Shown here piece after piece: positions 1 to 63,787 of a DNA stretch of 64,000 nt. Under the pieces are notes generated by a model, which was given only the letters and a program-made list of their open reading frames with translations, had not been told where the DNA came from and made no database searches. Positions within the stretch are counted from its first letter, which is position 1. Each line of letters begins with the position of its first letter. The DNA comes from Dehalococcoidia bacterium (GTDB taxonomy: Bacteria > Chloroflexota > Dehalococcoidia > UBA2979), in contig JAPYRK010000006.1 in the NCBI GenBank assembly GCA_029941115.1, positions 6,821 to 70,820 of the forward strand, in the 5' to 3' direction. A program made the translations under genes and the position numbers.

Positions 1-447
1 CGTTCTTACGCCGTGTTTACCTCAGAGCGCAAATTAAAATTTGTCGAAATGGAATATTTTATTCCCAGGGAGTTTGCTCGGGAAGCTTTAGAAAGAACAC
101 TAGACTTTGTACAGAACTCAGGCTTAGAGATATCGATGCCAATTGAGGTGCGTTGGGCTAGAGCTGACAACTTGCCTCTTAGTATGTGCTTTGGGCGAGA
201 GACTGCATCGATCGCAATTCATGTCAGGCAGAATGATCCATTTGAGCCCTATTTCGTTCCTGTTGAAACCATTATGAGTGATTACGGCGGTCGACCTCAC
301 TGGGGTAAAATGCACTTTCAGACCGCGGCAACATTGAGGGATCTGTACCCAGAGTGGGAGTCTTTTCAGAGAGCTCGAAAGATACTGGATCCGAATGGTC
401 GACTTGCAAATGCATATACTGATCGCGTGCTAGGACCTATTCAGTAG
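1..447 (+). CDS. FAD-linked oxidase, C-terminal part (D-arabinono-1,4-lactone oxidase/ALO-type domain); 5' end lies outside the window
   Basis: The frame is open from nt 1. The HWGKMH motif and the C-terminal pattern are typical of ALO/GULO-type FAD oxidases. The track ORF 13..447 is the in-window portion. Confidence 0.5.
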   Translation, partial: RSYAVFTSERKLKFVEMEYFIPREFAREALERTLDFVQNSGLEISMPIEVRWARADNLPLSMCFGRETASIAIHVRQNDPFEPYFVPVETIMSDYGGRPHWGKMHFQTAATLRDLYPEWESFQRARKILDPNGRLANAYTDRVLGPIQ

Positions 448-16565: not shown

Positions 16566-17927
16566 TTATTGGGCAGAGCGAAGAAATTCTGGCAAAAGAT
16601 GATCTGGATATCTGTCTCCTACATGACCTTGCTCGAGTAACTCTTTATATTCTAGGTCACTATAGCCAAGCAATTCCTTATATATCTCCTCACTATGCTC
16701 GCCGAGCCTTGGGGGAGGTGTACGCAGCGTGTTTGGTGTGTTGATCCATTTAGTCATTATTCCGGGATAGCGATAGTTTCCGATTACGGGCGAGTCTAGT
16801 TCTTCAAAAAAGCCGCGATCGATGAGCTGCGGTGAATTAAGGAGTTCAACGTCGTCAGTGACTGGACCAGCGCAAACTCCGGCTCGTTGCAGTTGCTCAA
16901 ATAGTTCGTACTTGTCAATATCGATTGTGTATTTTGTAAGCTCTTCGTGTAGGGCGTCACGATTCTTGAATCGTGATAACTGCGTTGTGAATTTTTCGTT
17001 TTCCTTTAGCAAGTCGGCATCGAGTACGTCGCACAGTGTCCGCCATTCGCTATCTTCTGACACGTCTATCGCAATCCACTGGTCCACACCGAGGGTAGGA
17101 AAGACTCCATGCGGAGCGTGGGAATGATGAGTATTTCCTTGTGGCCCTGCCACTCGTTGATTCATTTCGAAGTCAAGAATAAATTCGCCTAGATTGGGTA
17201 GAAATCCCTCCGCTAGTGGCATTTCTATCTGCTGACCTTGACCTGTTATGTCCCGAAAACGCAGCGCAGCAGTGATTACGGTAGCACCAAGTATGCCGGC
17301 AAAAGCATCTGCGGTGAATGCCTCCCCGGTCTGATCCGGAGTCCCGTCGGGATAGCCGCGTAGGTAGTGGTGGCCAATCATTGCTTCAACATGTGTACCA
17401 AATGCGCGATAACCTTTGTACGGGCCGGACAGGCCATATGCCGGCATTCGAAGCATAATGAGTCGTGGGTTTATTTCTTTTAGCGTATCGTAGGTGATAC
17501 CTGCTTTTTCTATAGTTGTGGGAACATTGTTTTCAACGAGCACATCGACTTCTTTTATAAGTTTTAGGAAAGCTTGTTTACCTTCACTCGTCATGATGTT
17601 GCATGCCATCGATTTCTTGTTTCGGCTATGTGAATTAAATCCAGGGTTCCTGTTCCAAGGTTCATCACCGGGGTCGAAGTCAGGATATGCACTTAGTGTG
17701 ATTCCATTATTCGCCATTTCAATGAGTTGCTCCCGAGGGGCAATGCGTTCAGCTCCTCTTGAATAGGGCTGAATTGCATCTACTGGTTCCACTCGAATAA
17801 CCTCTGCTCCCCATTCGGCGAGAACTTGAGTGCAGTGCGGGCCCGCCCAAACTACCGTGATCGCTGCAACTCTAACCCCATCTAATGGTAGATCAGGCCT
17901 AGTTGAAGTCTCTTGTTTAGTTGCCAT
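16566..17927 (-). CDS. CoA-transferase family III (CaiB/BaiF)
   Basis: N-terminal LDGVRV..ITVVWAGP, central conserved Asp region and the overall ~450 aa architecture. Confidence 0.85.
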   Translation of the reverse strand: MATKQETSTRPDLPLDGVRVAAITVVWAGPHCTQVLAEWGAEVIRVEPVDAIQPYSRGAERIAPREQLIEMANNGITLSAYPDFDPGDEPWNRNPGFNSHSRNKKSMACNIMTSEGKQAFLKLIKEVDVLVENNVPTTIEKAGITYDTLKEINPRLIMLRMPAYGLSGPYKGYRAFGTHVEAMIGHHYLRGYPDGTPDQTGEAFTADAFAGILGATVITAALRFRDITGQGQQIEMPLAEGFLPNLGEFILDFEMNQRVAGPQGNTHHSHAPHGVFPTLGVDQWIAIDVSEDSEWRTLCDVLDADLLKENEKFTTQLSRFKNRDALHEELTKYTIDIDKYELFEQLQRAGVCAGPVTDDVELLNSPQLIDRGFFEELDSPVIGNYRYPGIMTKWINTPNTLRTPPPRLGEHSEEIYKELLGYSDLEYKELLEQGHVGDRYPDHLLPEFLRSAQ

Positions 17928-17940
17928 AATTAGTTAACCC

Positions 17941-19149
17941 TTAAATCACTTTTGTCCGACGTAATTGAACTATGTCGGAATCGGTGTAACCCATATCCGA
18001 AAGAACGCTAACGGTATGCTCGCCTAGTAACGGAGCGCGTTTCATTTGTTTTCGAGTCGCGCCCGAAGTGACAAAATGGCGTCCAGGGTAGCGGATACTG
18101 CCTGTTTCAGGATGCTCGACTTCCTCCCAGACGTTTCTCTCTTGATAGTGTGGGTCATTGAGGAGATCTTCCACGGTCAGTATTGCTCCACCCAGAATTC
18201 CAATGGATTGCGTAGCTGCTACAGCTTCTCGTTTTGTCCGTTCGATTAGCCAAATGGCATATGACGCTTCCATTTCTTCAATGAATGTCGTCGACATTTG
18301 CATGAACGGTTTTTTTGCATCAGGTTGTTCCGCTAAATCTTCGCGACCAATAAGTCGCAGAAATTCAGGGACATGCTTGCTGGGTCCAGCCATTATATTG
18401 GCGTATCCGTCTTGTGCCGGACGTGGCCCAGAGGCAACTCTACCTAATGATCCACCGCGCTTATTGCTCCTCCCTGTATAGGATGCAGATGTGAGGCCGG
18501 GAGCTCTTCTGTCGCGAAATCCAGCTTGAGCCTCATAGACAGACTGATCAATATGATCACCGGATCCACCGCGCTCGACTCGTAAACGAGCTAGCACGCA
18601 CGCATATGTGAGCGACAATCCGGCATGATAATGTGCTAGATTTCCTCCAAGCTTGATGGGTTCCTTGGCTGGGTCACCATTCATATGCAGTGGACCGGCC
18701 ATTGCTTGAAGAACCAGCTCAGATCCTTTGAAATCTCTCCAAGGTCCAGTTTGTCCGAACGGAGTAAGCGATCCCAGTACTAGATCTGTTCGATTCGAAG
18801 TAAGTACCTTGTACCCCAAACCAAGTGACTCGAGGGTTCCGGGATTGAAATTTTCAATCACTATGTCATGGGAGTCGATCAGGGAGCGAATTATATCTTT
18901 TCCGTTCGGTTTAGCTAGATCACACGTGATCGATCGCTTGTTAGTGTTTAAATGCAAAAAAAGAGCTGAAGTTTCTTTGTTTGGAATGTCGTTTAGAAAA
19001 GGACCTTCTGCACGCGAAGGATCCCCGTCTGGTGGTTCAACCTTGAGGACATCGGCGCCGTAATCGGCGAAGAGCTTCCCTGAGTATGGAACACCAACCA
19101 TCGTACCCAGTTCGAGTACCCTTATGCCTTCAAATAGTTGCCTAGTCAT
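17941..19149 (-). CDS. CoA-transferase family III (CaiB/BaiF)
   Basis: FEGIRVLELGTMVGVPYSGKLFADYGADVLKVEPP is the canonical family III N-terminus. It lies adjacent to a paralogue. Confidence 0.85.
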   Translation of the reverse strand: MTRQLFEGIRVLELGTMVGVPYSGKLFADYGADVLKVEPPDGDPSRAEGPFLNDIPNKETSALFLHLNTNKRSITCDLAKPNGKDIIRSLIDSHDIVIENFNPGTLESLGLGYKVLTSNRTDLVLGSLTPFGQTGPWRDFKGSELVLQAMAGPLHMNGDPAKEPIKLGGNLAHYHAGLSLTYACVLARLRVERGGSGDHIDQSVYEAQAGFRDRRAPGLTSASYTGRSNKRGGSLGRVASGPRPAQDGYANIMAGPSKHVPEFLRLIGREDLAEQPDAKKPFMQMSTTFIEEMEASYAIWLIERTKREAVAATQSIGILGGAILTVEDLLNDPHYQERNVWEEVEHPETGSIRYPGRHFVTSGATRKQMKRAPLLGEHTVSVLSDMGYTDSDIVQLRRTKVI

Positions 19150-28413: not shown

Positions 28414-29661
28414 TCAGATGATTCCATTACTTCGAAACGCTATTACTTTTCTTTCGTCATATCCTAATAGATCGATTAATATTTCATCATTATCAGCGCC
28501 GGTACTTGGTGTTGGGCCAGTTATTTCACCCTGTCCTTTTTCAAGTTTCCATATCACTCCTCGATAGAGCGAATCAAGAGAGAAATTGTTGTCGGTCACG
28601 GTGAGACTAGTTCGGTGCAGACTATTGAGATTCTCATCATTGACTAGATCCAGTGTCCCCATGACCGGGTATGCTGGAATTTTTGACTTTTGGAGAGTTT
28701 TTGTTAGTTGCATAGCTGTGTAATCCTTGGTCCATGATTCAATGGTCTCGTCTAATTCATCTTGATTATCGAGTCGACCCTGTAACGTCTTGAACTTAGG
28801 GTTTGTTATATCCTCTGATTTTTGCGCTGCCAGATCTTTAAACGTCTCCCATTCTTCTTGATTTCGAACTGAGATCGATATCCATTCATCGAGCCCTGAT
28901 GTTTTGTAGTAACCGTGTGGTGCTGTCGCTGGGTATCTATTGCCTTGCGGACCTGCAACTCGGCCGTTTAAAAAGTAATCCATCAATGGTTCAGCTATTC
29001 GTTGAATGCAGGCTTCTCCTTGGGCTATATCAATGTGTTGGCCTCGCCCGGTCGTGTCCCGAGATTCAAGCGCCGCAAGTATCGCAAAAAACGCATGACC
29101 TGCCGCGGTAGGATCCAAATCCGCTTGGTCTTCTTGAGGATGGTCAGAATCGTGGTACCCAAGGACACTCTTTATTCCATAGAGCGCTGCCAGGGAGGGA
29201 CCGTAGGTGACGAGATCTCTCCACGGGCCATCGGTTGCTCCTGTAGCTGAAAGCGAGGCCAATATTATCTTCGGATTAATTCTCGTAAGAACATCAAAAC
29301 CGAGACCCAACGAAGGCATTACTCGGGCTGAAAAGTTTTCGACTACTACGTCGCTGACTGCGATGAGTTTTTTATATATTTCTTTGCCATCTTCTGACTG
29401 TAGATCCAGACTTAAGCTTTTCTTACCTCGATCGAATGCGTGATATGCCATTGGGTCAGAGATATCGACTGCATCCCGAGTGGCTGTGCCGGCCATTCCT
29501 TTGCCTGCCATTGACACTCCTGATCCACCCGTGGGGGATTGTATTTTTATAACTTCCGCGCCCATATCTTTAAAACTCATTCCCAGAAGCGGTCCAGCCC
29601 AGACGTGGCCGTGATCTATTACTCGTATTCCGCTGAGCGGACCATTGGTTGTTGCAGTCAT
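28414..29661 (-). CDS. CoA-transferase family III (CaiB/BaiF)
   Basis: Family III N-terminus (GIRVIDHGHVWAGP); 415 aa. Its start overlaps the stop of the upstream paralogue as TAATG. Confidence 0.85.
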   Translation of the reverse strand: MTATTNGPLSGIRVIDHGHVWAGPLLGMSFKDMGAEVIKIQSPTGGSGVSMAGKGMAGTATRDAVDISDPMAYHAFDRGKKSLSLDLQSEDGKEIYKKLIAVSDVVVENFSARVMPSLGLGFDVLTRINPKIILASLSATGATDGPWRDLVTYGPSLAALYGIKSVLGYHDSDHPQEDQADLDPTAAGHAFFAILAALESRDTTGRGQHIDIAQGEACIQRIAEPLMDYFLNGRVAGPQGNRYPATAPHGYYKTSGLDEWISISVRNQEEWETFKDLAAQKSEDITNPKFKTLQGRLDNQDELDETIESWTKDYTAMQLTKTLQKSKIPAYPVMGTLDLVNDENLNSLHRTSLTVTDNNFSLDSLYRGVIWKLEKGQGEITGPTPSTGADNDEILIDLLGYDERKVIAFRSNGII

Positions 29662-30911
29662 TAGGTAATTCCTAGCTTTGTAAGATTGGATCTCTCAGAA
29701 GTCGTAAGTCCTAATCTAGTTTTGAAGAATTCCTCGTTATGTTCCCCAAGCTGTGGTGCAGGACGGTAAACGGCCCACGGTGTTTCTGAAAATAGATATG
29801 GTGCGCCAGGTATTTTATAACTGCCTACAACCGGATGTTCTATCTCATGCCAAAAGCCTCTGACAGCCAAATGTTCACTTTCAATTATTTCATTAACCTT
29901 GTTGACTGGTTGAAAAGGAATTCTATTTTCCGAGAACAACTTGAATAATTCTGATCGAGTCTTACCTTTCATCCAAGGATGCCAAAACGCATCTAATTCC
30001 TTATGCCACTCAAAAGACAACCATCTATCAGAGAGCCTAGGATCATCGGCCCAGTCTGGATTATCCATAAGATTGATAAATCGTTTCCATTGTTCATCTA
30101 CCATCGTTATTACCTCCACAAAGCCATCAGAGGCTGGAGTGACCTGCCACGGATAAAATCCACTTCGATGTGTACCGTCTCTTGAACCGAGTACCCCCTG
30201 GAAGACAAATCCTGGAACGCCTGAGCCTCCCAAATAACTGGCCATAACTTCTACTACAGATATCCACGCATGCAATCCTTGGTTAAGTTGTCTTTTCTTA
30301 CGCAGTGCTAATAGAGCCGCAATGGCGCCATGAATACCTCCCTGAAAATCAGCCGCACAGTAAGGCAGCCAAAGAGGAACTTTATCCGGACTTCCAATTT
30401 TCTTAGAGGCACCTGAAGCGGCTGTAGCCGTTAGTGCTGTACCAGCCCAGTCTCTATAGGGTGTGTCGTAACCAAATATTGTGATGGATGACATGACGAG
30501 CATGTCATTGTTCTCGGATAGCGATTCGTAACTCAAACGTTCATTCGTGAGCTCTTCCAAAGAGAGATTACTGATTACCAAATCTACATCTGCTGCAGCC
30601 GAAATTAATAGATCCTGCCCGACTTGAGTAGCCAAGTCAAGAGTTACACTCTTCTTGTTAGTATTGAGGAATAGGTGTAACCCACTCTTTTCTATATGTG
30701 GAATGTCTTTTGGAAAAGGGCCATGGCTACGGAGCGAATCACCGATTATAGGTTTTTCTATCTTGATAACTTCAGCGCCTAGATCAGCCAATAATTTTCC
30801 AGCGTAGGCCACAGAGATGAAGTCACCGATCTCGAGCACTCGCAAATTCTTTAGTGGTCCGTGTATGTCCATAACTAGATCCTGTGCCGGAATCATAGTG
30901 AACACTGTCAA
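29661..30911 (-). CDS. CoA-transferase family III (CaiB/BaiF)
   Basis: Family III architecture; 416 aa. Confidence 0.85.
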   Translation of the reverse strand: MTVFTMIPAQDLVMDIHGPLKNLRVLEIGDFISVAYAGKLLADLGAEVIKIEKPIIGDSLRSHGPFPKDIPHIEKSGLHLFLNTNKKSVTLDLATQVGQDLLISAAADVDLVISNLSLEELTNERLSYESLSENNDMLVMSSITIFGYDTPYRDWAGTALTATAASGASKKIGSPDKVPLWLPYCAADFQGGIHGAIAALLALRKKRQLNQGLHAWISVVEVMASYLGGSGVPGFVFQGVLGSRDGTHRSGFYPWQVTPASDGFVEVITMVDEQWKRFINLMDNPDWADDPRLSDRWLSFEWHKELDAFWHPWMKGKTRSELFKLFSENRIPFQPVNKVNEIIESEHLAVRGFWHEIEHPVVGSYKIPGAPYLFSETPWAVYRPAPQLGEHNEEFFKTRLGLTTSERSNLTKLGIT

Positions 30912-31030: not shown

Positions 31031-31495
31031 CTACTTCTTATTTCGCATTTCGGTGAATTTAATCATCTTGATTGCTTCGGAGACACTCATTCGACCGATT
31101 GGTCCTGATGCGTAGAGCGATCCTAGAATTTTGCCACTAGCATCTAGCAAAAATTCTGCGGGTTGGGAATATTCACCATGGTGATCTGCTCCCCACCAAA
31201 CACCGAGCGATTCAGCATGGCTTTTTTCCACGCTGTGAATCATGGTGAATGTCAGATTATTTTTAGTAACGACCCCGCCTACCTGGTCAGGTGTATCTAC
31301 GCTCGCAGCGTACACCGTCACCCCCAGCTGTTCGAGTTCTTTTTTTGCAGACTGCCATTCGGCCAACTGCCGATTACAGAACGGTCACCAGTGTCCACGA
31401 TAGAAAAGTATAGCCGCATATTTGGTGGGGATATCTCTAGGTAGCTCGATCTTGTCTTCGTCAAGTGTTTTAAAAACTAGCGAGGGGAAGGTCAT
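31031..31495 (-). CDS. thioredoxin-fold Prx/AhpC-TSA-like thiol peroxidase, selenoprotein candidate (UxxC; Sec codon TGA at 31385..31387)
   Basis: Reading through one in-frame TGA gives MTFPSLVFKTLDEDKIELPRDIPTKYAAILFYRGHW-U-PFCNRQLAEWQSAKKELEQLGV, a 154 aa product. The track reports only the 3' fragment, 31031..31366. Confidence 0.62.
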
Positions 31496-31528
31496 ATTTT
31501 GTTGAAGCATATTATTCAATGTTAGAGC

Positions 31529-31975: not shown

Positions 31976-32113
31976 TTAACTACAGAACAAGGATAATTGA
32001 TATTTTCAGTCTACCTGTTTGTACAGATTTTTTTTTGATATAGTTAAATCAGTTACGTGTTGACTTATTAGTCAGCAATAATTGGATGCGGGGGCTTCTA
32101 CCCCAAATCTAAT

Positions 32114-32149
32114 AAGGAGCGAGGTCTCAACCTCGCTCCTTATTTTTTG
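32114..32149 (+). terminator. strong rho-independent terminator with no annotated upstream + strand gene
   Basis: AAGGAGCGAGG-tctcaa-CCTCGCTCCTT followed by ATTTTTTG. A smaller GGGGcttctaCCCC hairpin precedes it at about 32088..32105. Confidence 0.55.
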
Positions 32150-41479: not shown

Positions 41480-41788
41480 ATGATTTTCCATATAATCGCT
41501 GAGCACGACCACACCACCTGTGGCCGAGTCGAAAATGGCTTGGTAACTAAAACTTGGGAAGAGAGTGCACAAGGTGCAACGTCCTGGGTAGAAGGTAATG
41601 ACAACGTAACAGTACTTGGTGTTTGAGGTTATCCAGTTCAGCATCGTATTTTTGCGGTTGTTGAAGCCGAGACATTTGAGGCTGTCGAATTACTTTTCGA
41701 TTTTCATCTCGCTAAAGGACCAGTCGAGTTTTTACCAGTAAAGGATTTGGTTCAAAATCGGAAAGACCTAGGTTTCTGGGGTCAATGA
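41480..41788 (+). CDS. muconolactone-isomerase-like (dimeric alpha+beta barrel) ORF with one in-frame TGA at 41624..41626 (Sec/readthrough or pseudogene)
   Basis: TAAGGA RBS, MIFHIIAEHDH...VTVLGV-TGA-GYPVQHRIFAVVEAETFEAVELLFDFHLAKGPVEFLPV... The length (102 codons) and the MLFHV-like start resemble MLI (about 96 aa). The track missed it because both halves are under 60 aa. Confidence 0.3.
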
Positions 41789-45330: not shown

Positions 45331-46143
45331 TTATCTCTCGACCAGGGTATCCGCCTGCCGGGACCATTCGCCGAAGGAACCGTCATAGTTCCTGGCCTTG
45401 TCATAACCCATGAGTTTCAGAATCATTAAAGCGTGCGCCGCACGCATGCCACCCTGTCAATATGTAAGAACTTCACTTTCCGGAGTGATCCCACGTTCCT
45501 CAAGAATTTTTTGGATTTCATCAGCAGGCTTCATAGTTTGTGACTCAGGTTCGACGACGGAGTTCCACTCCAAATGTATTGCTCCAGGGATACGGCCGAC
45601 ACGATCAGGCGCATTCCCCCTTGAAATTTCTCCTGTAAACTCTCCCTCCAGTCGCGTATCCCAAAAAATGACTTGGGAATTATTTACGCCATCCTTTGCG
45701 TGCCCCAAGTCACAATAGAGATCAGGGATTATTTGCTTTATAAACTGTGTCGATGGGAATTCAGATTGTCTGGTTTCGAGATCGCGTTTTTCGACTGTCC
45801 ATTTCTTAATTCCGCCATTCAAAAAGTGCACCTTCATGAGGCCATAATACGAAAGTAACCACCAAGCGCGCGCTGCCGGAGGTCCAAGATCGTCATAACA
45901 AATAACCCTACTGTCATTACCAATTCCATTCTTAGATAATGTCTGAGCGAAATCATCGGGATCAACTAACTCCAAGTTAAAAGGAATGTCGAGTAAGTTG
46001 ATTGCCCCTGGGATGTGACCCTTGTCGTATTCTTCTTGTGAGCGAACATCGATTATTCGTAAATCCGTGTCCGAGATATGATCCGCAAGCCACGCACTTT
46101 CAACTAGTATCGTTTGATTGGGATAGGGTTTCGTGTCAGGCAT
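45331..46143 (-). CDS. two-domain rhodanese (thiosulfate/3-mercaptopyruvate sulfurtransferase-like), selenoprotein candidate with Sec (TGA 45457..45459) at the catalytic Cys position
   Basis: The track ORF stops at TGA. Read-through gives ...EVLTY-U-QGGMRAAHALMILKLMGYDKARNYDGSFGEWSRQADTLVER, which is exactly the CRxGxR active-site loop followed by the conserved YDGSW.EW tail. GAGGAG RBS at the start. Confidence 0.68.
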
Positions 46144-58926: not shown

Positions 58927-60141
58927 CTAGTGCTCTGTGGTAAAAATACCATCCGCGGCCAGCTCCGTTATTTCAGTTTCGGAAAAACCGGCATCAATTA
59001 AAACTTCGTAATTATGTTCTCCGACTAGGGGTGCTCTTCTACGTGGTGCCAAGTCAGCATCCTGAATGCTAAACGGAGTTGAAATTATTCGATATTCTTT
59101 TCCTGTGACGTCTTCAAGAGTTGTAATTGCTTCCTGTTCCAAGATCACTGGATCGGTTGCAATTTCAGAGAGCGATGCAGCCGGTGCCCAGATACATTCA
59201 TTCTTGTCGAGGAGGGGCGCCCACTCGGATAGTGTTTTTGACTTGAACTCTGCCTGAAGTTCCGCAACTATTTCAGTACCGTGTTCGAGCATTCCTGCAT
59301 TTGTGGTAAATCTTGAATCTGTTGACCAGTCTGAGCGTCCAAGCACTGCACATAGACGGGGCCAATGTCGAGGCACGTTATGCATTGTGAGCATTAGCCA
59401 CCTTTTATCTTTTGTTTCGTACGCACTTCGTATTAACAGCCCGTGGGTTTGTCGATTGAATTGACTCGGGATGCTGTTAGGGAGATTCATTGCCAGTTGC
59501 ATATCGGTAGCAATCGTCCACAAACCAGTTCGAAGAAGAGACACTTCGGCTCTCTGTGGTAATCCAGTTTGTTCTTTGAGTCGTAGTGCGGCAAGCGTTG
59601 CAGCAAGTAGATTCACACCTGTCGGATGGTCTCCCTGTCCAGGACGACTCTGCACTGCGGGTGCGCCGACTTCACCCATAAGTCCCATAACGCCTGATCG
59701 TGCCCAAAAGGCGGTGCTGTCGAAGCCAGGACGTTCGGAGTCTGTGCCACTGCCACTATACCCAACTAAATGGCCGTACACCAAAGTCGGCTGAATTTGT
59801 TTTAAGGTTTCGAAGTCTAGTCGATATTTTTCAGCTCGTTTCGATGTGAGGTTAGTAATAAAAATGTCAGCGCTCGCGATTAGTCGATGTAACACATCTT
59901 GTGCCGCCGTTTTTGTGAGGTCCAATGCGAGAGATTGCTTGCCGCGATTATCGACCTCAAAGACATAGTTTACTGGCGCGGATACATGGAGGTGAGCTCG
60001 ATTTCCACGAAATGTGTCACCATCAGGAGGCTCTATCTTAATAACCGTTGCGCCCATATCTGCCATAAGTGCAGCGGCAGAAGGAGCAGCCAAAAAACTT
60101 GCAACTTCAATCACACGAATACCGTCTAAAGGGCCAACCAT
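58927..60141 (-). CDS. CoA-transferase family III (CaiB/BaiF)
   Basis: LDGIRVIEVASFLAAPSAAALMADMGATVIKIEPP N-terminus; 404 aa. Confidence 0.85.
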   Translation of the reverse strand: MVGPLDGIRVIEVASFLAAPSAAALMADMGATVIKIEPPDGDTFRGNRAHLHVSAPVNYVFEVDNRGKQSLALDLTKTAAQDVLHRLIASADIFITNLTSKRAEKYRLDFETLKQIQPTLVYGHLVGYSGSGTDSERPGFDSTAFWARSGVMGLMGEVGAPAVQSRPGQGDHPTGVNLLAATLAALRLKEQTGLPQRAEVSLLRTGLWTIATDMQLAMNLPNSIPSQFNRQTHGLLIRSAYETKDKRWLMLTMHNVPRHWPRLCAVLGRSDWSTDSRFTTNAGMLEHGTEIVAELQAEFKSKTLSEWAPLLDKNECIWAPAASLSEIATDPVILEQEAITTLEDVTGKEYRIISTPFSIQDADLAPRRRAPLVGEHNYEVLIDAGFSETEITELAADGIFTTEH

Positions 60142-60216
60142 ATTGCTCTTTGTACCATAGTCTTACTCTTGAGGGTAAGAATTTATTTGCGAGAAAGAAT
60201 TGCTAGAGGAATTATT

Positions 60217-61407
60217 ATGTCTGGACCACTGGATGGCATGCGCGTTCTCGAATTTACACAGCTGATAATGGGACCGCAGTGTTGTCAGTTACTGCGGGAT
60301 CTTGGTTGCGATGTGATCAAGATTGAACATCCGGACGCACCGGATTCTTCAAGACGAATTCCGGCGTCTGAGTCTGAATCTGCCCCACCGGTATACCATG
60401 CTAACAATCGTGGTAAGCGAAGCCTTACAGTCAACTTCGGCAATCCCGAAGGATTGGAACTAGTACAGGCTCTCATAGCTGAGAGTGACGTCTTGGTGAC
60501 GACGCTGCGACCACAAGCCCTAGATCGAGCAGGGCTGGGATATGAAGCCTGTCGCACCATTAATCCACGTTTGATATATGCAGTAGGTACTACCTACGGC
60601 CCGCAAGGTCCAGACAGTAATCGTCCGGGAAATGACCTAATGGCTCAAGCCGCAGGAGGTTTAGCCTGGAATACCGGAACACCGGAATCAGCTCAGGGGG
60701 CCGGTGCATTGGTGGCGGACACCATGGGCGGTATGACTTTGTTTGGGGCAATTGTTACGGCTCTTTATGCTCGTGAAAAGTCAGGTGTTGGTCAGATGGT
60801 CGAAACCTCTCTTCTGGGTGGGCAAATTTGGGCGCAATCTTCAGAGTTGATGGCGCACGTAATGGCCGGAAACCAACACGATCGATCTCAGCGTACATAT
60901 CCGTGGTTGAGTTCAATATCACCTATAAGTATTTATCAAGCCAAGGATGGTTACGTAGCGTTATCAGGCGTCCCTAAAAGATGGGAGAAGTTTTGGAATG
61001 CTTTGGGTCGAGCTGATCTTGCGGCTAATGAAGTATTGCAGGCGGGCCTGGAGAGATTACGTCAAAATGATTTGATAACTAAGGCAATTTCTGAGATTTT
61101 TGTGAATATGAGTGCGCGTGATATTCACATCATTTTGGAAGAAGTTGATGCGGTTTGGGCACCAGTCAATGATTATGATCACGTGGTCACTAACCCGCAG
61201 GTGCTGGAGAGCGGTTATTTACGCCAGGCGAGTCACCCTGAATACGGTGACATGGTAACTATGGGCACACCGGTGCGCTATAGTGACGGAATTGACGAGC
61301 CGGCTGATCGGGCACCCGAGCTCGGCGAGAATACTGAAGAAATCTTGCTAGAGATTGGCTATAGCTGGGAGCAGATTGAGCTCCTAAAGAAAGAAGGAGC
61401 TCTTTAG
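60217..61407 (+). CDS. CoA-transferase family III (CaiB/BaiF)
   Basis: MSGPLDGMRVLEF start with a GAGGA RBS. The track start at 60169 adds 16 aa with no RBS. Confidence 0.85.
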   Translation: MSGPLDGMRVLEFTQLIMGPQCCQLLRDLGCDVIKIEHPDAPDSSRRIPASESESAPPVYHANNRGKRSLTVNFGNPEGLELVQALIAESDVLVTTLRPQALDRAGLGYEACRTINPRLIYAVGTTYGPQGPDSNRPGNDLMAQAAGGLAWNTGTPESAQGAGALVADTMGGMTLFGAIVTALYAREKSGVGQMVETSLLGGQIWAQSSELMAHVMAGNQHDRSQRTYPWLSSISPISIYQAKDGYVALSGVPKRWEKFWNALGRADLAANEVLQAGLERLRQNDLITKAISEIFVNMSARDIHIILEEVDAVWAPVNDYDHVVTNPQVLESGYLRQASHPEYGDMVTMGTPVRYSDGIDEPADRAPELGENTEEILLEIGYSWEQIELLKKEGAL

Positions 61408-62393
61408 ATCGCCTGATCTGTATTTACGTGAGTTGGGACGTTTTCTTCCTCAAATATCATGTCTATTTCTTCACGAATTTCGGAAGTAAGTTCCCATTCA
61501 ACTGCTGCGACATTCTCCTTAAGTTCCCATTCGTTACGAACGCCAACTAGTCCAACCGACACAGCCGGATGGCCAAGTGTCCAGGCAATTGCCATCTGGG
61601 CGACTGATTTATTGTTCCGTTCCGCAATCGTTTTCAGACGTTCAACCACTCGCAGTTCTTTGGCGAATTCTTCGGTCTGAAATAGGGGTAACTTGAACGC
61701 TATTCCGCTGCTTCGCCAGTCATTTTCTCCAAAACTAGTGTCGGGAGTAAAAGCTCCAGACAGCAAACCAAAGCCAAGCGTGCCATAAGCCATGAATCCA
61801 ATGTTTTTGTCCAGACAGTGTGGCAGAACGGTAGATTCCATCCGACGATCGAACATGTGATAACCCACCTGATTTGCTGCCATGTGACCATATTGTTCGC
61901 ACTCATCCATCATCTCTGGGGTAAAGTTAGACACACCATAATGTCTAATTTTGCCGGTCTGTTTCAGTTGTTCAAGTGCTCGGATGGTTTCTTCAAACGG
62001 AGTGTTGTGATCAGGCCAATGTATGAGTAGAAGGTCTAAATAGTCTGTGTTTAAACGACTGAGGCAGCCTTCTGCTCTGTCGATAACATGCTGAAACTGA
62101 GAGTTACGTCCTAAATTCTTTCCGTTTTCGTCATACGCGAAGCCAACTTTGCTGACTAGTAAGATATCTTTTCGTTTATTTCCTAATGCTTTGGACAAAA
62201 GCTCCTCAGAATGATATGGACCGTACACTTCTGCTGTGTCGAAAAGAGTAATACCGTGGTCTATTGCAGCGTGCACGGCATCAGCCGCTTCGTTTACATC
62301 TATGTCACCATAGGTGGTGGTAGCCATTTCCCAAGTTCCAAAACCGATCGGTGAAGAAAAGAGATCGCTGTCACCGAGTTGTCGTTGCTCCAT
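61404..62393 (-). CDS. aldo/keto reductase
   Basis: FDTAEVYG, LVSKV and IHWPD motifs; 329 aa. Confidence 0.9.
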   Translation of the reverse strand: MEQRQLGDSDLFSSPIGFGTWEMATTTYGDIDVNEAADAVHAAIDHGITLFDTAEVYGPYHSEELLSKALGNKRKDILLVSKVGFAYDENGKNLGRNSQFQHVIDRAEGCLSRLNTDYLDLLLIHWPDHNTPFEETIRALEQLKQTGKIRHYGVSNFTPEMMDECEQYGHMAANQVGYHMFDRRMESTVLPHCLDKNIGFMAYGTLGFGLLSGAFTPDTSFGENDWRSSGIAFKLPLFQTEEFAKELRVVERLKTIAERNNKSVAQMAIAWTLGHPAVSVGLVGVRNEWELKENVAAVEWELTSEIREEIDMIFEEENVPTHVNTDQAI

Positions 62394-62596
62394 CGTTAGT
62401 CCTTAATGTTTGTACTCGTTTGATAATGGTTGGACTGTACCATATACACATTAGGCGGACTGATTAACTGAGCCTACTTCGGCATTACGCTTGATATGGC
62501 AGCACTTCAAAGTTGGGTTAACTTGCATAACTTCAACACGGTTTTACAATATAAGTCCGTATAAAAGTAGTGAAGAACGATTTATTAAGGAAACTC

Positions 62597-63787
62597 ATGG
62601 CTGAAGAGCATCAACGTCTTTTGGCAGGCCTTCGAATAATTGATGCTGGTCAAGTATTGGCCGGGCCATTTGTGTCTACGTTATTAGCAGATATGGGCGC
62701 AGAGGTTATTCGTGTAGAACTACCTGCACTCCGGCATGATACGGCGGCTCAGCAGAATTCAACGAGAGCTGGACTGCAGCGTAACAAAAAGTCAGTTTCT
62801 CTAGACTTGAGAAAACCTGAGGGCGCTGAATTGTTTAAGAAATTGGTCGCTAGTGCTGATGCTGTGGTTGAAAATTTCTCTCCAGGAACAATGGAGCGCT
62901 GGGGTATAGGGGAGGACGAGCTTGCAAAGGTGAATTCGCGACTAATTTTCGTACGAATTTCTGGGTTTGGTCAGACAGGCCCGTATCGTGACCGGACGTC
63001 TTATGACAGGATTGGTCAAGCGATAGGGGGGATGATTTATGTAACCGGTGAGGCAGATCAACCTCCAGTACATCCAGGATACATGATGGGTGATTTGGCT
63101 ACGGGCACATATGGCGCGCTTGCTATTTTAGGGGCCGTATATCATCGAGACCACGAAAATTGCCAGGAAACACAGATTGTTGATTTGTCATTATACGAAT
63201 CTATCCTGAGTTATTCAGGACCAATGGCGGCTGAATATAGTAGATCAGGCATTGTTCGGGAGCGAGCAGGTAACGTAAGATCCTGGTCTATTCCCGGGGA
63301 TCAATTTTTGACCAAGGATGGAAAGTGGGTGTTGATTCTCGCTCTTAATCCACAAATATTTCAAAGACTTTGCGATGCGATGAGTATCCCAGATTTACCA
63401 CAGGATCCAAAATTTTCGAATCACGCCAATCGATTTGCCAACGAAGTTGAACTCCATTCAATGATCCGAGAGTGGGTAAAAGATTTCGATTCAGTAGATT
63501 TATATAGTGTTCTAGATGAGTATCGAGTGCCGTATGGCCCGGTCTATAGTATTGCCGATATATTCGCCGACCCGCATATAGCTGCGCGGAAAAATTTGGT
63601 ACAGGTAGACGATCCATTTGTTGGTCCCGTAACTGTACCCGCGCCATATCCGAATCTGTCTCATGCCGAGGGGAGAATATATAATCCTGCTCCACGAATA
63701 GGTGAGCACAATGATGAGATTTACAAGGAACTTTTAGGTCTCACTGAAACTGAGATAGATGAGCTTACGGACGTAGGTGCTATTTAG
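62597..63787 (+). CDS. CoA-transferase family III (CaiB/BaiF)
   Basis: LAGLRIIDAGQVLAGPFVSTLLADMGAEVIRVE N-terminus. AAGGAA RBS before the ATG at 62597. Confidence 0.85.
   Translation: MAEEHQRLLAGLRIIDAGQVLAGPFVSTLLADMGAEVIRVELPALRHDTAAQQNSTRAGLQRNKKSVSLDLRKPEGAELFKKLVASADAVVENFSPGTMERWGIGEDELAKVNSRLIFVRISGFGQTGPYRDRTSYDRIGQAIGGMIYVTGEADQPPVHPGYMMGDLATGTYGALAILGAVYHRDHENCQETQIVDLSLYESILSYSGPMAAEYSRSGIVRERAGNVRSWSIPGDQFLTKDGKWVLILALNPQIFQRLCDAMSIPDLPQDPKFSNHANRFANEVELHSMIREWVKDFDSVDLYSVLDEYRVPYGPVYSIADIFADPHIAARKNLVQVDDPFVGPVTVPAPYPNLSHAEGRIYNPAPRIGEHNDEIYKELLGLTETEIDELTDVGAI

What the first reader, a model, noticed from the sequence alone, without database searches (positions are those of the whole stretch)
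31031..31495. Prx/AhpC-TSA-like thioredoxin-fold gene with a UxxC redox motif (TGA at 31385..31387)
A TGA splits the minus-strand gene. The upstream part (ATG 31495) encodes MTFPSLVFKTLDEDKIELPRDIPTKYAAILFYRGHW and the downstream part continues PFCNRQLAEW... in the same frame. Joined, they give FYRGHW-U-PFC, the UxxC counterpart of the WCPxC motif of thioredoxin-fold peroxidases. This is the most common context for bacterial selenocysteine. A short hairpin (CGGC-AGUUG-GCCG plus a U-A pair) starts 12 nt after the UGA. The six-frame track shows only the 3' piece (31031..31366) and an antisense ORF.
Basis: partly seen in the sequence, partly recalled or inferred. Interest (0 to 1): 0.75.

Follow-up and report, generated by a model that had tools for sequence, protein, structure and literature searches.

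The report
Selenocysteine-encoding peroxiredoxin-like redox gene
A small redox-protein gene that gene finders cut in two at an internal TGA is almost certainly one gene, with the TGA encoding selenocysteine in a U-x-x-C active site; this is a correct call, but the selenoprotein family is already well known.

Summary
A minus-strand reading frame (31510 or 31495 down to 31031) has one in-frame TGA at 31387..31385. Joined across it, the product is a single AhpC/TSA thioredoxin-fold domain (Pfam 3.3e-19) with the motif FYRGHW-U-PFC.

Evidence that the TGA encodes selenocysteine:
- The same codon is TGA in at least 115 distinct homologues down to about 30% identity, and Cys in others.
- 94% of the TGA forms carry a perfect hairpin of at least 5 bp just downstream. 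This compares with 33% of Cys forms and 50% under a synonymous-codon null. The stem shows compensatory changes.
- The window's hairpin (UCGGC-AGUUG-GCCGA, 11 nt after the UGA) meets all four published bacterial SECIS criteria.
- TGA is an ordinary stop elsewhere in the window.
- A second gene, a rhodanese at 46143..45331, has TGA at its catalytic Cys, followed by a hairpin at the same spacing.

No Sec-insertion genes or tRNA-Sec lie in the ORFs and loci I could check, so that test stays open.

The protein is not a canonical peroxiredoxin. Sec replaces the motif Thr, and the catalytic Arg and Pro are absent. It fits the known "Prx-like, PF00578, UxxC" selenoprotein family, in a Dehalococcoidia (SAR202-like) genome. 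It is a new member of a known kind, of low interest apart from correcting the annotation.

The parts
31031..31510 (-). Complete coding sequence of the Prx-like selenoprotein. It is 159 codons plus TAG if it starts at ATG 31510, or 154 codons if it starts at ATG 31495. It holds one in-frame TGA.
   Evidence: Pfam AhpC-TSA 3.3e-19, one domain spanning the TGA. One search shows both ATGs conserved with only synonymous changes between them. One search shows synonymous changes outnumbering non-synonymous ones downstream of the TGA against L007 (37:19) and L117 (28:17).
31385..31387 (-). UGA codon read as selenocysteine: residue 42 from ATG 31510, or residue 37 from ATG 31495.
   Evidence: The codon is TGA at the homologous position in 115 distinct homologues and Cys in 90 others. 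It is identical in four independent assemblies.
31376..31387 (-). U-P-F-C redox motif (TGA CCG TTC TGT) within FYRGHW-U-PFC.
   Evidence: W36, P38 invariant; C37 and C40 nearly invariant in the alignment. One search shows the second Cys aligning to the peroxidatic Cys of 2ywn and Sec aligning to the motif Thr.
31359..31373 (-). SECIS-type hairpin inside the coding sequence: 5-bp stem UCGGC/GCCGA with loop AGUUG, starting 11 nt after the UGA. The loop begins 16 nt after the UGA.
   Evidence: -7.5 kcal/mol alone, 3 of 200 shuffles fold as well. (78% of cells paired against 69% in shuffles, covariation 0.247 against 0.117, 0 of 500 shuffles reach either). (94% of TGA forms against 33% of Cys forms have a stem of 5 bp or more). 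(the rare Arg codon CGG is used here). (26 nt around it are invariant among orthologues that otherwise differ at synonymous sites).
31352..31379 (-). Possible extended structure: a 4-bp lower stem CUGU/GCAG around the hairpin with an internal loop. This is tentative.
   Evidence: It is predicted in the 45-nt fold (-11.4 kcal/mol). It is kept through one-sided changes in L007 but broken by a G-G mismatch in L117 (sequences), so it is not established.
45331..46143 (-). A separate gene used as supporting evidence that this genome decodes Sec. It is a two-domain rhodanese (sulfurtransferase) with TGA at 45459..45457 in the catalytic loop TY-U-QGGMRAAH, and a hairpin GCGUGC-GGC-GCACGC at 45445..45431 that again starts 11 nt after the UGA.
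   Evidence: (Pfam Rhodanese 5.8e-42, two stretches). Orthologues L208 (55% identity) and L209 (42%) keep the TGA, the downstream protein and the same hairpin.

Best explanation
This is one gene for a small (about 159 aa) thioredoxin-fold protein of the AhpC/TSA ('Prx-like') family. The first residue of its CxxC-type redox centre is selenocysteine (U-P-F-C).

Inferred from the established bacterial mechanism: during translation the UGA at 31387..31385 is not read as stop. The mRNA folds into a short hairpin (stem UCGGC/GCCGA, loop AGUUG) 11 nt downstream. The Sec-specific elongation factor SelB binds that loop and delivers Sec-tRNA(Sec) to the UGA.

Inferred by analogy with CxxC/UxxC thiol oxidoreductases: in the finished protein the selenolate is the attacking nucleophile. 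It forms a selenenylsulfide with the Cys three residues downstream while reducing an oxidised substrate, either a disulfide or a peroxide-derived species. It is then re-reduced by a thioredoxin-type partner.

Shown here: the single-domain homology across the TGA, the Cys/TGA alternation among homologues, the structure-specific conservation of the hairpin, and normal use of TGA as stop elsewhere in the window. Inferred only: actual Sec insertion, the substrate, and the presence of selA/selB/selC/selD in the genome.
For: 1. One domain across the TGA. Pfam AhpC-TSA scores 69.5 bits against a cut-off of 26, covering residues 4-123.

2. TGA/Cys alternation.
- Verified TGA at the same codon in L001, L002, L004, L005, L006 and L007, at 90% down to 30% identity.
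Nearly all of those loci show Prx-like sequence on both sides of the TGA.
- Cys forms are seen.

3. Gene callers either truncate these genes or translate the TGA as W. P0001 and P0006 do not translate to the record under table 11.

4. A hairpin specific to the TGA forms.
- A stem of 5 bp or more occurs in 94% of 115 TGA forms, 33% of 90 Cys forms and 50% of a synonymous null (maximum 62% in 200 runs).
- A stem of 6 bp or more occurs in 69%, 4% and 24% respectively.
- Loops are mostly AGUUG, GGU, AGUU or GGC.

5. Covariation. Arg CGG pairs with Ala GCC, CGC with GCG, CGU with ACG or GAC. In register A, 78% of cells pair against 69% in shuffles (0 of 500), and no more than 56% when the partners are slid.

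6. Codon choice.
- In the xRQL subfamily the Leu codon is UUG or UUA in 36 of 38 sequences despite GC3 of 0.68.
- The window uses CGG (10% of its Arg codons), UUG (17%) and GCC (20%) at this site.
- Only 1.6% of synonymous recodings of the window's peptide fold as well.

7. All four published bSECIS criteria are met: 5-nt loop, 5-bp stem, G at loop position 2 followed by U, 16 nt from UGA to loop, and -7.5 kcal/mol.

8. TGA terminates 10 of 43 long ORFs in the window, so there is no global reassignment.

9. A second Sec-type gene (rhodanese) lies in the same window with the same 11-nt spacing.

10. Literature. 'Prx-like 1, pfam00578, UxxC' accounts for 225 GOS selenoproteins (PMC2398784). Dehalococcoidia MAGs with 46-49 selenoproteins are recorded (PMC13326102).
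Against: - No selA, selB, selD or tRNA-Sec was found among the 38 window ORFs checked with Pfam (28 of the 60 ORFs of 120 aa or more; the other 32 were not scanned), in the tRNA and Rfam scans of the window, or in 60 related loci. The genome outside the window could not be searched.
- The window's hairpin is minimal. It sits exactly on two thresholds of the consensus (16 nt, -7.5 kcal/mol), and in a 68-nt context its MFE is no better than shuffles (z = -0.22).
- 39% of synonymous recodings still give some 5-bp stem.
- Part of the stem conservation is forced by the conserved RQLA peptide.
- There is no experimental evidence of selenium incorporation.
Confidence: 0.92

Rival explanations
1. The gene is a pseudogene or a recent nonsense mutation. 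The TGA is a real stop, the 5' fragment is junk, and only a truncated or no product is made.
For: Gene callers annotate only the 111-aa 3' piece. The same window does contain a TGA that looks like a plain nonsense change at a conserved Trp codon, in the DUF3303-like gene.
Against: TGA is kept at exactly this codon in 115 distinct homologues across very different lineages, down to 30% identity. The protein is conserved on both sides. Downstream changes are mostly synonymous. A hairpin specific to the TGA forms follows the codon. The 111-aa piece would lack the whole redox motif.
Confidence: 0.03
2. The UGA is read through, but as a standard amino acid (Cys, Trp or Gly) by near-cognate decoding or a lineage-specific recoding, not as selenocysteine.
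For: Sec machinery was not seen in the sequence available. Some public gene calls translate the codon as W (P0001, P0006, P0019). UGA is the leakiest stop codon (general knowledge).
Against: Those W calls are artefacts of translation under another genetic code, because the DNA is TGA. TGA ends 10 of 43 long ORFs here. The position aligns to the redox Cys, never to Trp, in real homologues. The downstream hairpin meets the SelB-type SECIS consensus and is under structural selection, which passive leakiness would not need. A second gene has TGA at its catalytic Cys with the same hairpin spacing.
Confidence: 0.04
3. The TGA is a sequencing or assembly error for TGC or TGT.
For: TGA is a single base away from a Cys codon.
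Against: Identical TGA-containing sequence occurs in four independent assemblies and in diverged orthologues from Logan, NCBI and JGI data.
Confidence: 0.01

Closest known systems
Prx-like thiol:disulfide oxidoreductase selenoproteins ('Prx-like 1', pfam00578, UxxC), described from prokaryotic genomes and from the Sargasso Sea and GOS metagenomes (PMC1088965, PMC2398784, PMC1794560; review PMC13188914)
   Same: It has the same Pfam domain (PF00578), the same UxxC Sec motif and a thioredoxin fold. Cys-containing homologues outnumber Sec forms. The SECIS hairpin lies inside the coding sequence just after the UGA. The setting is marine.
   Different: I could not check whether this exact subfamily (FYRGHW-U-P[FY]C ... 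YASGPIGRM) is among the sequences in those papers. The host here is a Dehalococcoidia (SAR202-like) genome rather than the Deltaproteobacteria in which the family was first listed. Public records still annotate it as a truncated 111-aa 'redoxin domain-containing protein'.
BCP/PrxQ-type peroxiredoxins (closest solved structures 2ywn and 4g2e from a Prx-like protein, and 3hjp Bcp-4)
   Same: They share the fold and overall domain (E = 2e-4 over residues 22-146). The second Cys of the motif aligns with the peroxidatic Cys.
   Different: The Prx signature P-x-x-x-T-x-x-C is changed to R-G-H-W-U-P-F-C, with Pro replaced by Arg and Thr by Sec. The catalytic Arg position holds Pro, in the conserved QPAEF motif. 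All NCBIfam peroxiredoxin models score far below their cut-offs.
Escherichia coli fdhF-type bacterial SECIS and the bSECISearch consensus
   Same: The hairpin begins 11 nt after the UGA and lies in the coding region. It has a small apical loop with G then U, and it meets all four consensus criteria.
   Different: It is much shorter than the fdhF element: a 5-bp upper stem, with an uncertain lower stem and no demonstrated bulged U. SelB binding was not tested.
SelL and SelL-related Prx-like redox proteins (NCBIfam NF040769)
   Same: They are Prx-like thioredoxin-fold proteins with a U/C-x-x-U/C motif. There is a weak N-terminal match of 25.7 bits.
   Different: The score is far below the family cut-off of 120 bits, so this is not a member.

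Membership tests
AhpC/TSA thioredoxin-fold superfamily (Pfam PF00578 / PF08534) | Whole-protein score above Pfam's gathering threshold, as one domain | tested here: met
   PF00578 scores 69.5 bits (cut-off 26) over residues 4-123 against profile positions 6-121 of 124. PF08534 scores 45.6 bits (cut-off 26.6).
Prx-like UxxC selenoprotein family | In-frame TGA aligned with a conserved redox Cys of homologues (a Sec/Cys pair) | tested here: met
   Cys occupies this column in P0007, P0008, P0012, P0015-17 and in 90 genomic loci. TGA occupies it in the window.
Prx-like UxxC selenoprotein family | TGA-containing homologues in other organisms, with protein similarity on both sides | tested here: met
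   There are 115 distinct TGA forms. Six were checked codon by codon.
Prx-like UxxC selenoprotein family | UxxC motif at the N-terminus of the first helix of the fold | tested here: inconclusive
   The motif U-P-F-C is present. Its position relative to secondary structure was inferred only from the alignment to 2ywn. No model was built.
Prx-like UxxC selenoprotein family | Host genome carries selA, selB, selC (tRNA-Sec) and selD | not testable with these tools
   None was found among the 38 window ORFs checked with Pfam (28 of the 60 ORFs of 120 aa or more), in the tRNA and Rfam scans of the window, or in 60 related loci. Support is indirect: a second Sec-type gene and the literature.
Prx-like UxxC selenoprotein family | Selenium actually incorporated at the UGA | not testable with these tools
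   This needs 75Se labelling or mass spectrometry.
Bacterial SECIS consensus (PMC13188914, Fig. 2 legend) | Apical loop of 3-9 nt and upper stem of 4-16 bp | tested here: met
   The loop AGUUG is 5 nt and the stem UCGGC/GCCGA is 5 bp.
Bacterial SECIS consensus (PMC13188914, Fig. 2 legend) | G in one of the first two loop positions, usually followed by G or U | tested here: met
   The loop reads A-G-U-U-G. GUU is kept in 36 of 38 xRQL-subfamily members through UUG or UUA Leu codons.
Bacterial SECIS consensus (PMC13188914, Fig. 2 legend) | 16-37 nt between the UGA and the apical loop | tested here: met
   An 11-nt spacer plus a 5-nt arm gives 16 nt, which is the lower limit.
Bacterial SECIS consensus (PMC13188914, Fig. 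2 legend) | MFE of -7.5 kcal/mol or lower | tested here: met
   The 22-nt hairpin alone gives -7.5 kcal/mol, and the 45-nt context gives -11.4. The first value is exactly at the limit.
Bacterial SECIS consensus (PMC13188914, Fig. 2 legend) | Structure conserved by covariation among Sec-containing homologues | tested here: met
   (covariation 0.247 against 0.117 in shuffles, 0 of 500). (94% of Sec forms against 33% of Cys forms).
Canonical peroxiredoxin (Prx/BCP/AhpC) | Active-site signature P-x-x-x-T/S-x-x-C plus the conserved catalytic Arg | tested here: not met
   Aligned to 2ywn FYPAAFTQVC, the window has FYRGHWUPFC. Pro is replaced by Arg and Thr by Sec. The Arg of AKRAVFVID aligns to Pro in SQPAEFLLD. 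NCBIfam Prx models score 20-40 bits against cut-offs of 140-272.

The most novel reading that the evidence does not exclude
The Sec form of this Prx-like subfamily may be a lineage-typical part of the oxidative catabolic gene clusters of aerobic deep-ocean SAR202-type Dehalococcoidia. It sits in conserved synteny beside paired family-III CoA-transferases, a DUF4440-like protein, a PNPOx-like flavoprotein and a CDGSH iron-sulfur protein. On this reading it has a specific substrate there, such as a CoA- or acyl-linked disulfide or peroxide, rather than a generic antioxidant role. Its SECIS would be a family-specific minimal type, maintained by coordinated Arg/Ala codon choice in two alternative registers.
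Probability: 0.12. Interest if true: 0.4.

Novelty: new member of a known kind. Interest (0 to 1): 0.22.

Why it matters
The main value is annotation. Every public record I could inspect splits or truncates this gene: to 111 aa without its active site, or with the TGA translated as Trp. The neighbouring rhodanese loses its catalytic loop in the same way. Redox and sulfur or selenium metabolism in these abundant marine Dehalococcoidia is therefore under-called.

The case also gives a clean worked example of a minimal in-frame SECIS that is maintained by synonymous-codon covariation.

It does not change what is known about selenoproteins. UxxC Prx-like selenoproteins have been catalogued since 2004-2008, and Dehalococcoidia are already listed among selenoprotein-rich bacteria.

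Tried and rejected
- MFE z-scores on 68-nt and 45-nt stretches after the UGA were not significant (z = -0.22 and -0.71). Single-sequence folding cannot judge so small a hairpin, so I switched to comparative and synonymous-null tests.
- Rfam found nothing relevant, either at gathering threshold on the whole window or in permissive mode on 31300..31420. Only a chance lncRNA match at E = 9 appeared.
It therefore returned only Cys homologues. These were useful as controls, but the scan told me nothing about which named genomes carry the TGA form or the Sec machinery.
- Scans for tRNA-Sec in the window and in 60 loci found none.
- Pfam scans of 38 window ORFs (28 of the 60 ORFs of 120 aa or more, including all ORFs in the SelA/SelB/SelD size range) found no SelA, SelB or SelD.
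- A lower stem (CUGU/GCAG) around the hairpin was considered and left as tentative, because L117 breaks it.
- A systematic scan for other TGA-joined ORFs gave mostly non-coding frames. One candidate proved to be a real Sec-type gene (the rhodanese). Another, a DUF3303-like gene, was rejected as Sec because all homologues have Trp encoded by TGG there.
- NCBIfam gave no family above its cut-off for the Prx-like protein.

Full report
**What is in the sequence**

On the minus strand a reading frame runs from ATG 31495 (or the upstream in-frame ATG 31510) to TAG 31033..31031, with a single internal TGA at 31387..31385. The mechanical ORF list shows only three fragments: a 44-aa 5' piece, a 111-aa 3' piece that starts at a TTG just after the motif, and an antisense ORF.

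With the TGA replaced by Cys, the 154-aa product is one AhpC/TSA domain (PF00578, 3.3e-19, residues 4-123 against profile positions 6-121 of 124; also Redoxin PF08534).

The start is more likely ATG 31510. Both ATGs are conserved in orthologues, the only differences between them are synonymous CAA/CAG changes, and the extra MLQQN residues align with the KLQQGD N-termini of homologues. That gives 159 aa with Sec at residue 42.

**The TGA is real and conserved**

The identical TGA-containing sequence is present in four independent assemblies. A homology search returned three kinds of relatives:
- full-length proteins with Cys at this column (P0007, P0008, P0012, P0015-17);
- proteins with 'W' at this column (P0001, P0006, P0019);
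- many products of 100-128 aa that start just after the motif.

Fetching the DNA showed that the 'W' is TGA translated under another code. It also showed that two of the truncated hits, on contigs of 0.97 and 0.88 Mb, are preceded by a 44-aa ORF ending in TGA in the same frame. The syntenic NCBI MAG contig (Dehalococcoidia bacterium, GCA_029247135.1) has the same TGA.

In nearly all of them the translation reads Prx-like sequence on both sides of the TGA. Altogether there are 115 distinct TGA forms and 90 distinct Cys forms.

Against the close orthologues L007 and L117, codon changes downstream of the TGA are mostly synonymous (37:19 and 28:17). The downstream part is therefore under purifying selection as protein. 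TGA terminates 10 of 43 long ORFs in the window, which excludes a general TGA reassignment.

**The hairpin**

Eleven nucleotides after the UGA lies UCGGC-AGUUG-GCCGA (31373..31359).

Taken alone it is weak evidence:
- A 68-nt fold is no better than shuffles.
- The isolated 22-nt hairpin gives -7.5 kcal/mol, with 3 of 200 shuffles as good.

Comparative analysis is decisive:
- A perfect stem of 5 bp or more, starting 7-21 nt after the codon, is found in 94% of TGA forms. The figure is 33% for Cys forms, which equals their own synonymous-codon null, and 50% (maximum 62%) for synonymous recodings of the TGA forms.
- For stems of 6 bp or more the figures are 69%, 4% and 24%.
- The loops are dominated by AGUUG, GGU, AGUU and GGC.

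In the subfamily that shares xRxL after the motif (48 sequences, alignment A2), the stem is kept by coordinated codon choice:
- Arg CGG pairs with Ala GCC.
- CGC pairs with GCG, in a register shifted by one with loop AGUU.
- CGU pairs with Thr ACG or Asp GAC.
- G-U wobbles occur with Val GUC.

The formal count for the main register gives 78% of cells paired against 69% in shuffles (0 of 500), and a covariation score of 0.247 against 0.117 (0 of 500). All slid controls reach 56% or less.

Codon usage points the same way:
- The Leu codon in the loop is UUG or UUA in 36 of 38 sequences, although GC3 is 0.68.
- The window itself uses CGG (10% of its Arg codons), UUG (17%) and GCC (20%).
- Only 1.6% of synonymous recodings of its peptide fold as well.
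- Among window, L007 and L001, 26 nt around the hairpin are invariant, while synonymous changes are frequent elsewhere.
- The nearest Cys homologues (L008, L009) have no such hairpin.

The element meets all four criteria of the published bacterial SECIS consensus (PMC13188914): loop of 3-9 nt, stem of 4-16 bp, G in the first two loop positions followed by G or U, 16-37 nt from UGA to loop, and MFE of -7.5 or lower. It sits on the limit for the last two. Rfam has no matching family.

**Does the genome decode Sec?**

This could not be tested directly. No tRNA-Sec lies in the window or in 60 related loci. No SelA, SelB or SelD was found among the 38 window ORFs I scanned with Pfam, which cover 28 of the 60 ORFs of 120 aa or more and every ORF in the size range of those proteins. 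The remaining 32 ORFs were not scanned.

Indirect support is good. A scan for other TGA-joined frames found a second case. The two-domain rhodanese at 46143..45331 has TGA (45459..45457) at its catalytic Cys (TY-U-QGGMRAAH; Pfam Rhodanese 5.8e-42). A 6-bp hairpin GCGUGC-GGC-GCACGC follows, again starting 11 nt after the UGA. Its closest relatives in the database are all truncated at 84% coverage. The two I fetched, at 55% and 42% identity, keep the TGA, the downstream protein and the hairpin. Rhodanese UxxG selenoproteins are also a listed family. In addition, BSepDB reports Dehalococcoidia MAGs with 46 and 49 selenoproteins (PMC13326102).

**What kind of protein it is**

The best solved relative is a BCP-type Prx-like protein (2ywn/4g2e, E = 2e-4). 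In that alignment:
- FYPAAFTQVC corresponds to FYRGHWUPFC.
- The second Cys of the motif is at the peroxidatic-Cys position.
- Sec replaces the motif Thr.
- The motif Pro is replaced by Arg.
- The catalytic Arg is replaced by Pro, within the family-conserved QPAEF.

No NCBIfam model reaches its cut-off. The protein is therefore Prx-like in fold but is not a canonical peroxiredoxin. Its chemistry is more likely that of a UxxC thiol/selenol-disulfide oxidoreductase, with Sec as the attacking residue and Cys as the resolving partner. This is an inference by analogy, and the substrate is unknown.

**Context and host**

The gene lies 18-33 nt downstream of a DUF4440-like ORF and about 120 nt upstream of two family-III CoA-transferases. 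A PNPOx-like protein and a CDGSH protein lie nearby. The same order is seen in the NCBI Dehalococcoidia MAG.

The window carries at least seven family-III CoA-transferase paralogues, luciferase-like monooxygenases and an F420H2-dependent quinone reductase. From my own knowledge this is typical of SAR202-type Dehalococcoidia.

**Comparison with what is known, and verdict**

UxxC 'Prx-like' selenoproteins with PF00578 were described from genomes in 2004-2006. They were among the most abundant families in the Sargasso Sea and GOS data (225 sequences of 'Prx-like 1'; PMC2398784; also PMC1088965, PMC1794560 and review PMC13188914).

The finding is right and well supported, but it is a new member of a known family in a lineage already known to be rich in selenoproteins. 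Its practical value is in correcting annotation.

Noticed in passing
window 45331..46143 (-), TGA at 45457..45459: This is a second selenoprotein-type gene. It is a two-domain rhodanese (sulfurtransferase) that gene callers truncate to 228 aa. The TGA sits at the catalytic Cys (TY-U-QGGMRAAH), and a hairpin GCGUGC-GGC-GCACGC starts 11 nt after it. Orthologues at 55% and 42% identity keep the TGA and the hairpin.
   Followed up: yes
window 41480..41788 (+), TGA at 41624..41626: A DUF3303-like gene has an in-frame TGA where all 8 database homologues have Trp, and the 87%-identical L210 has TGG. The TGA allele is on 11 contigs from independent assemblies, all 100% identical to the window, so it is real. 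It could be a recent fixed nonsense mutation or a leaky UGA read as Trp, and this could not be decided. It is not a Sec site.
   Followed up: partly
L003 (ENA scaffold, protein P0004), codon at locus 203..205: This homologue is about 50% identical to the window protein and close to the TGA-bearing L002. It has TCA (Ser), one base from TGA, at the Sec position, yet it keeps the GCGGC-AGUUG-GCCGC hairpin. It is either a very recent Sec-to-Ser change or a base-call error.
   Followed up: no
window 16566..19149, 28414..30911, 58927..63787: At least seven paralogous family-III CoA-transferase genes lie in 64 kb, several as adjacent pairs. They sit alongside three luciferase-like monooxygenases, two aldo/keto reductases, an F420H2-dependent quinone reductase and ETF subunits. 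This paralogue-rich catabolic content is typical of SAR202-type Dehalococcoidia.
   Followed up: partly
public proteins P0001, P0006, P0019 (loci L001, L002, L006): Public gene calls on short contigs translate the Sec-TGA as Trp, apparently because the caller chose a TGA=Trp code. This gives spurious 'HWWPFC' proteins in the databases. These records do not translate to their own DNA under table 11.
   Followed up: yes
window 32111..32144 (+): A perfect 15-bp inverted repeat with a 4-nt loop is followed by a T run. It is terminator-like and lies in the 484-bp gap between the DUF4440-like gene and the PNPOx-like gene.
   Followed up: no
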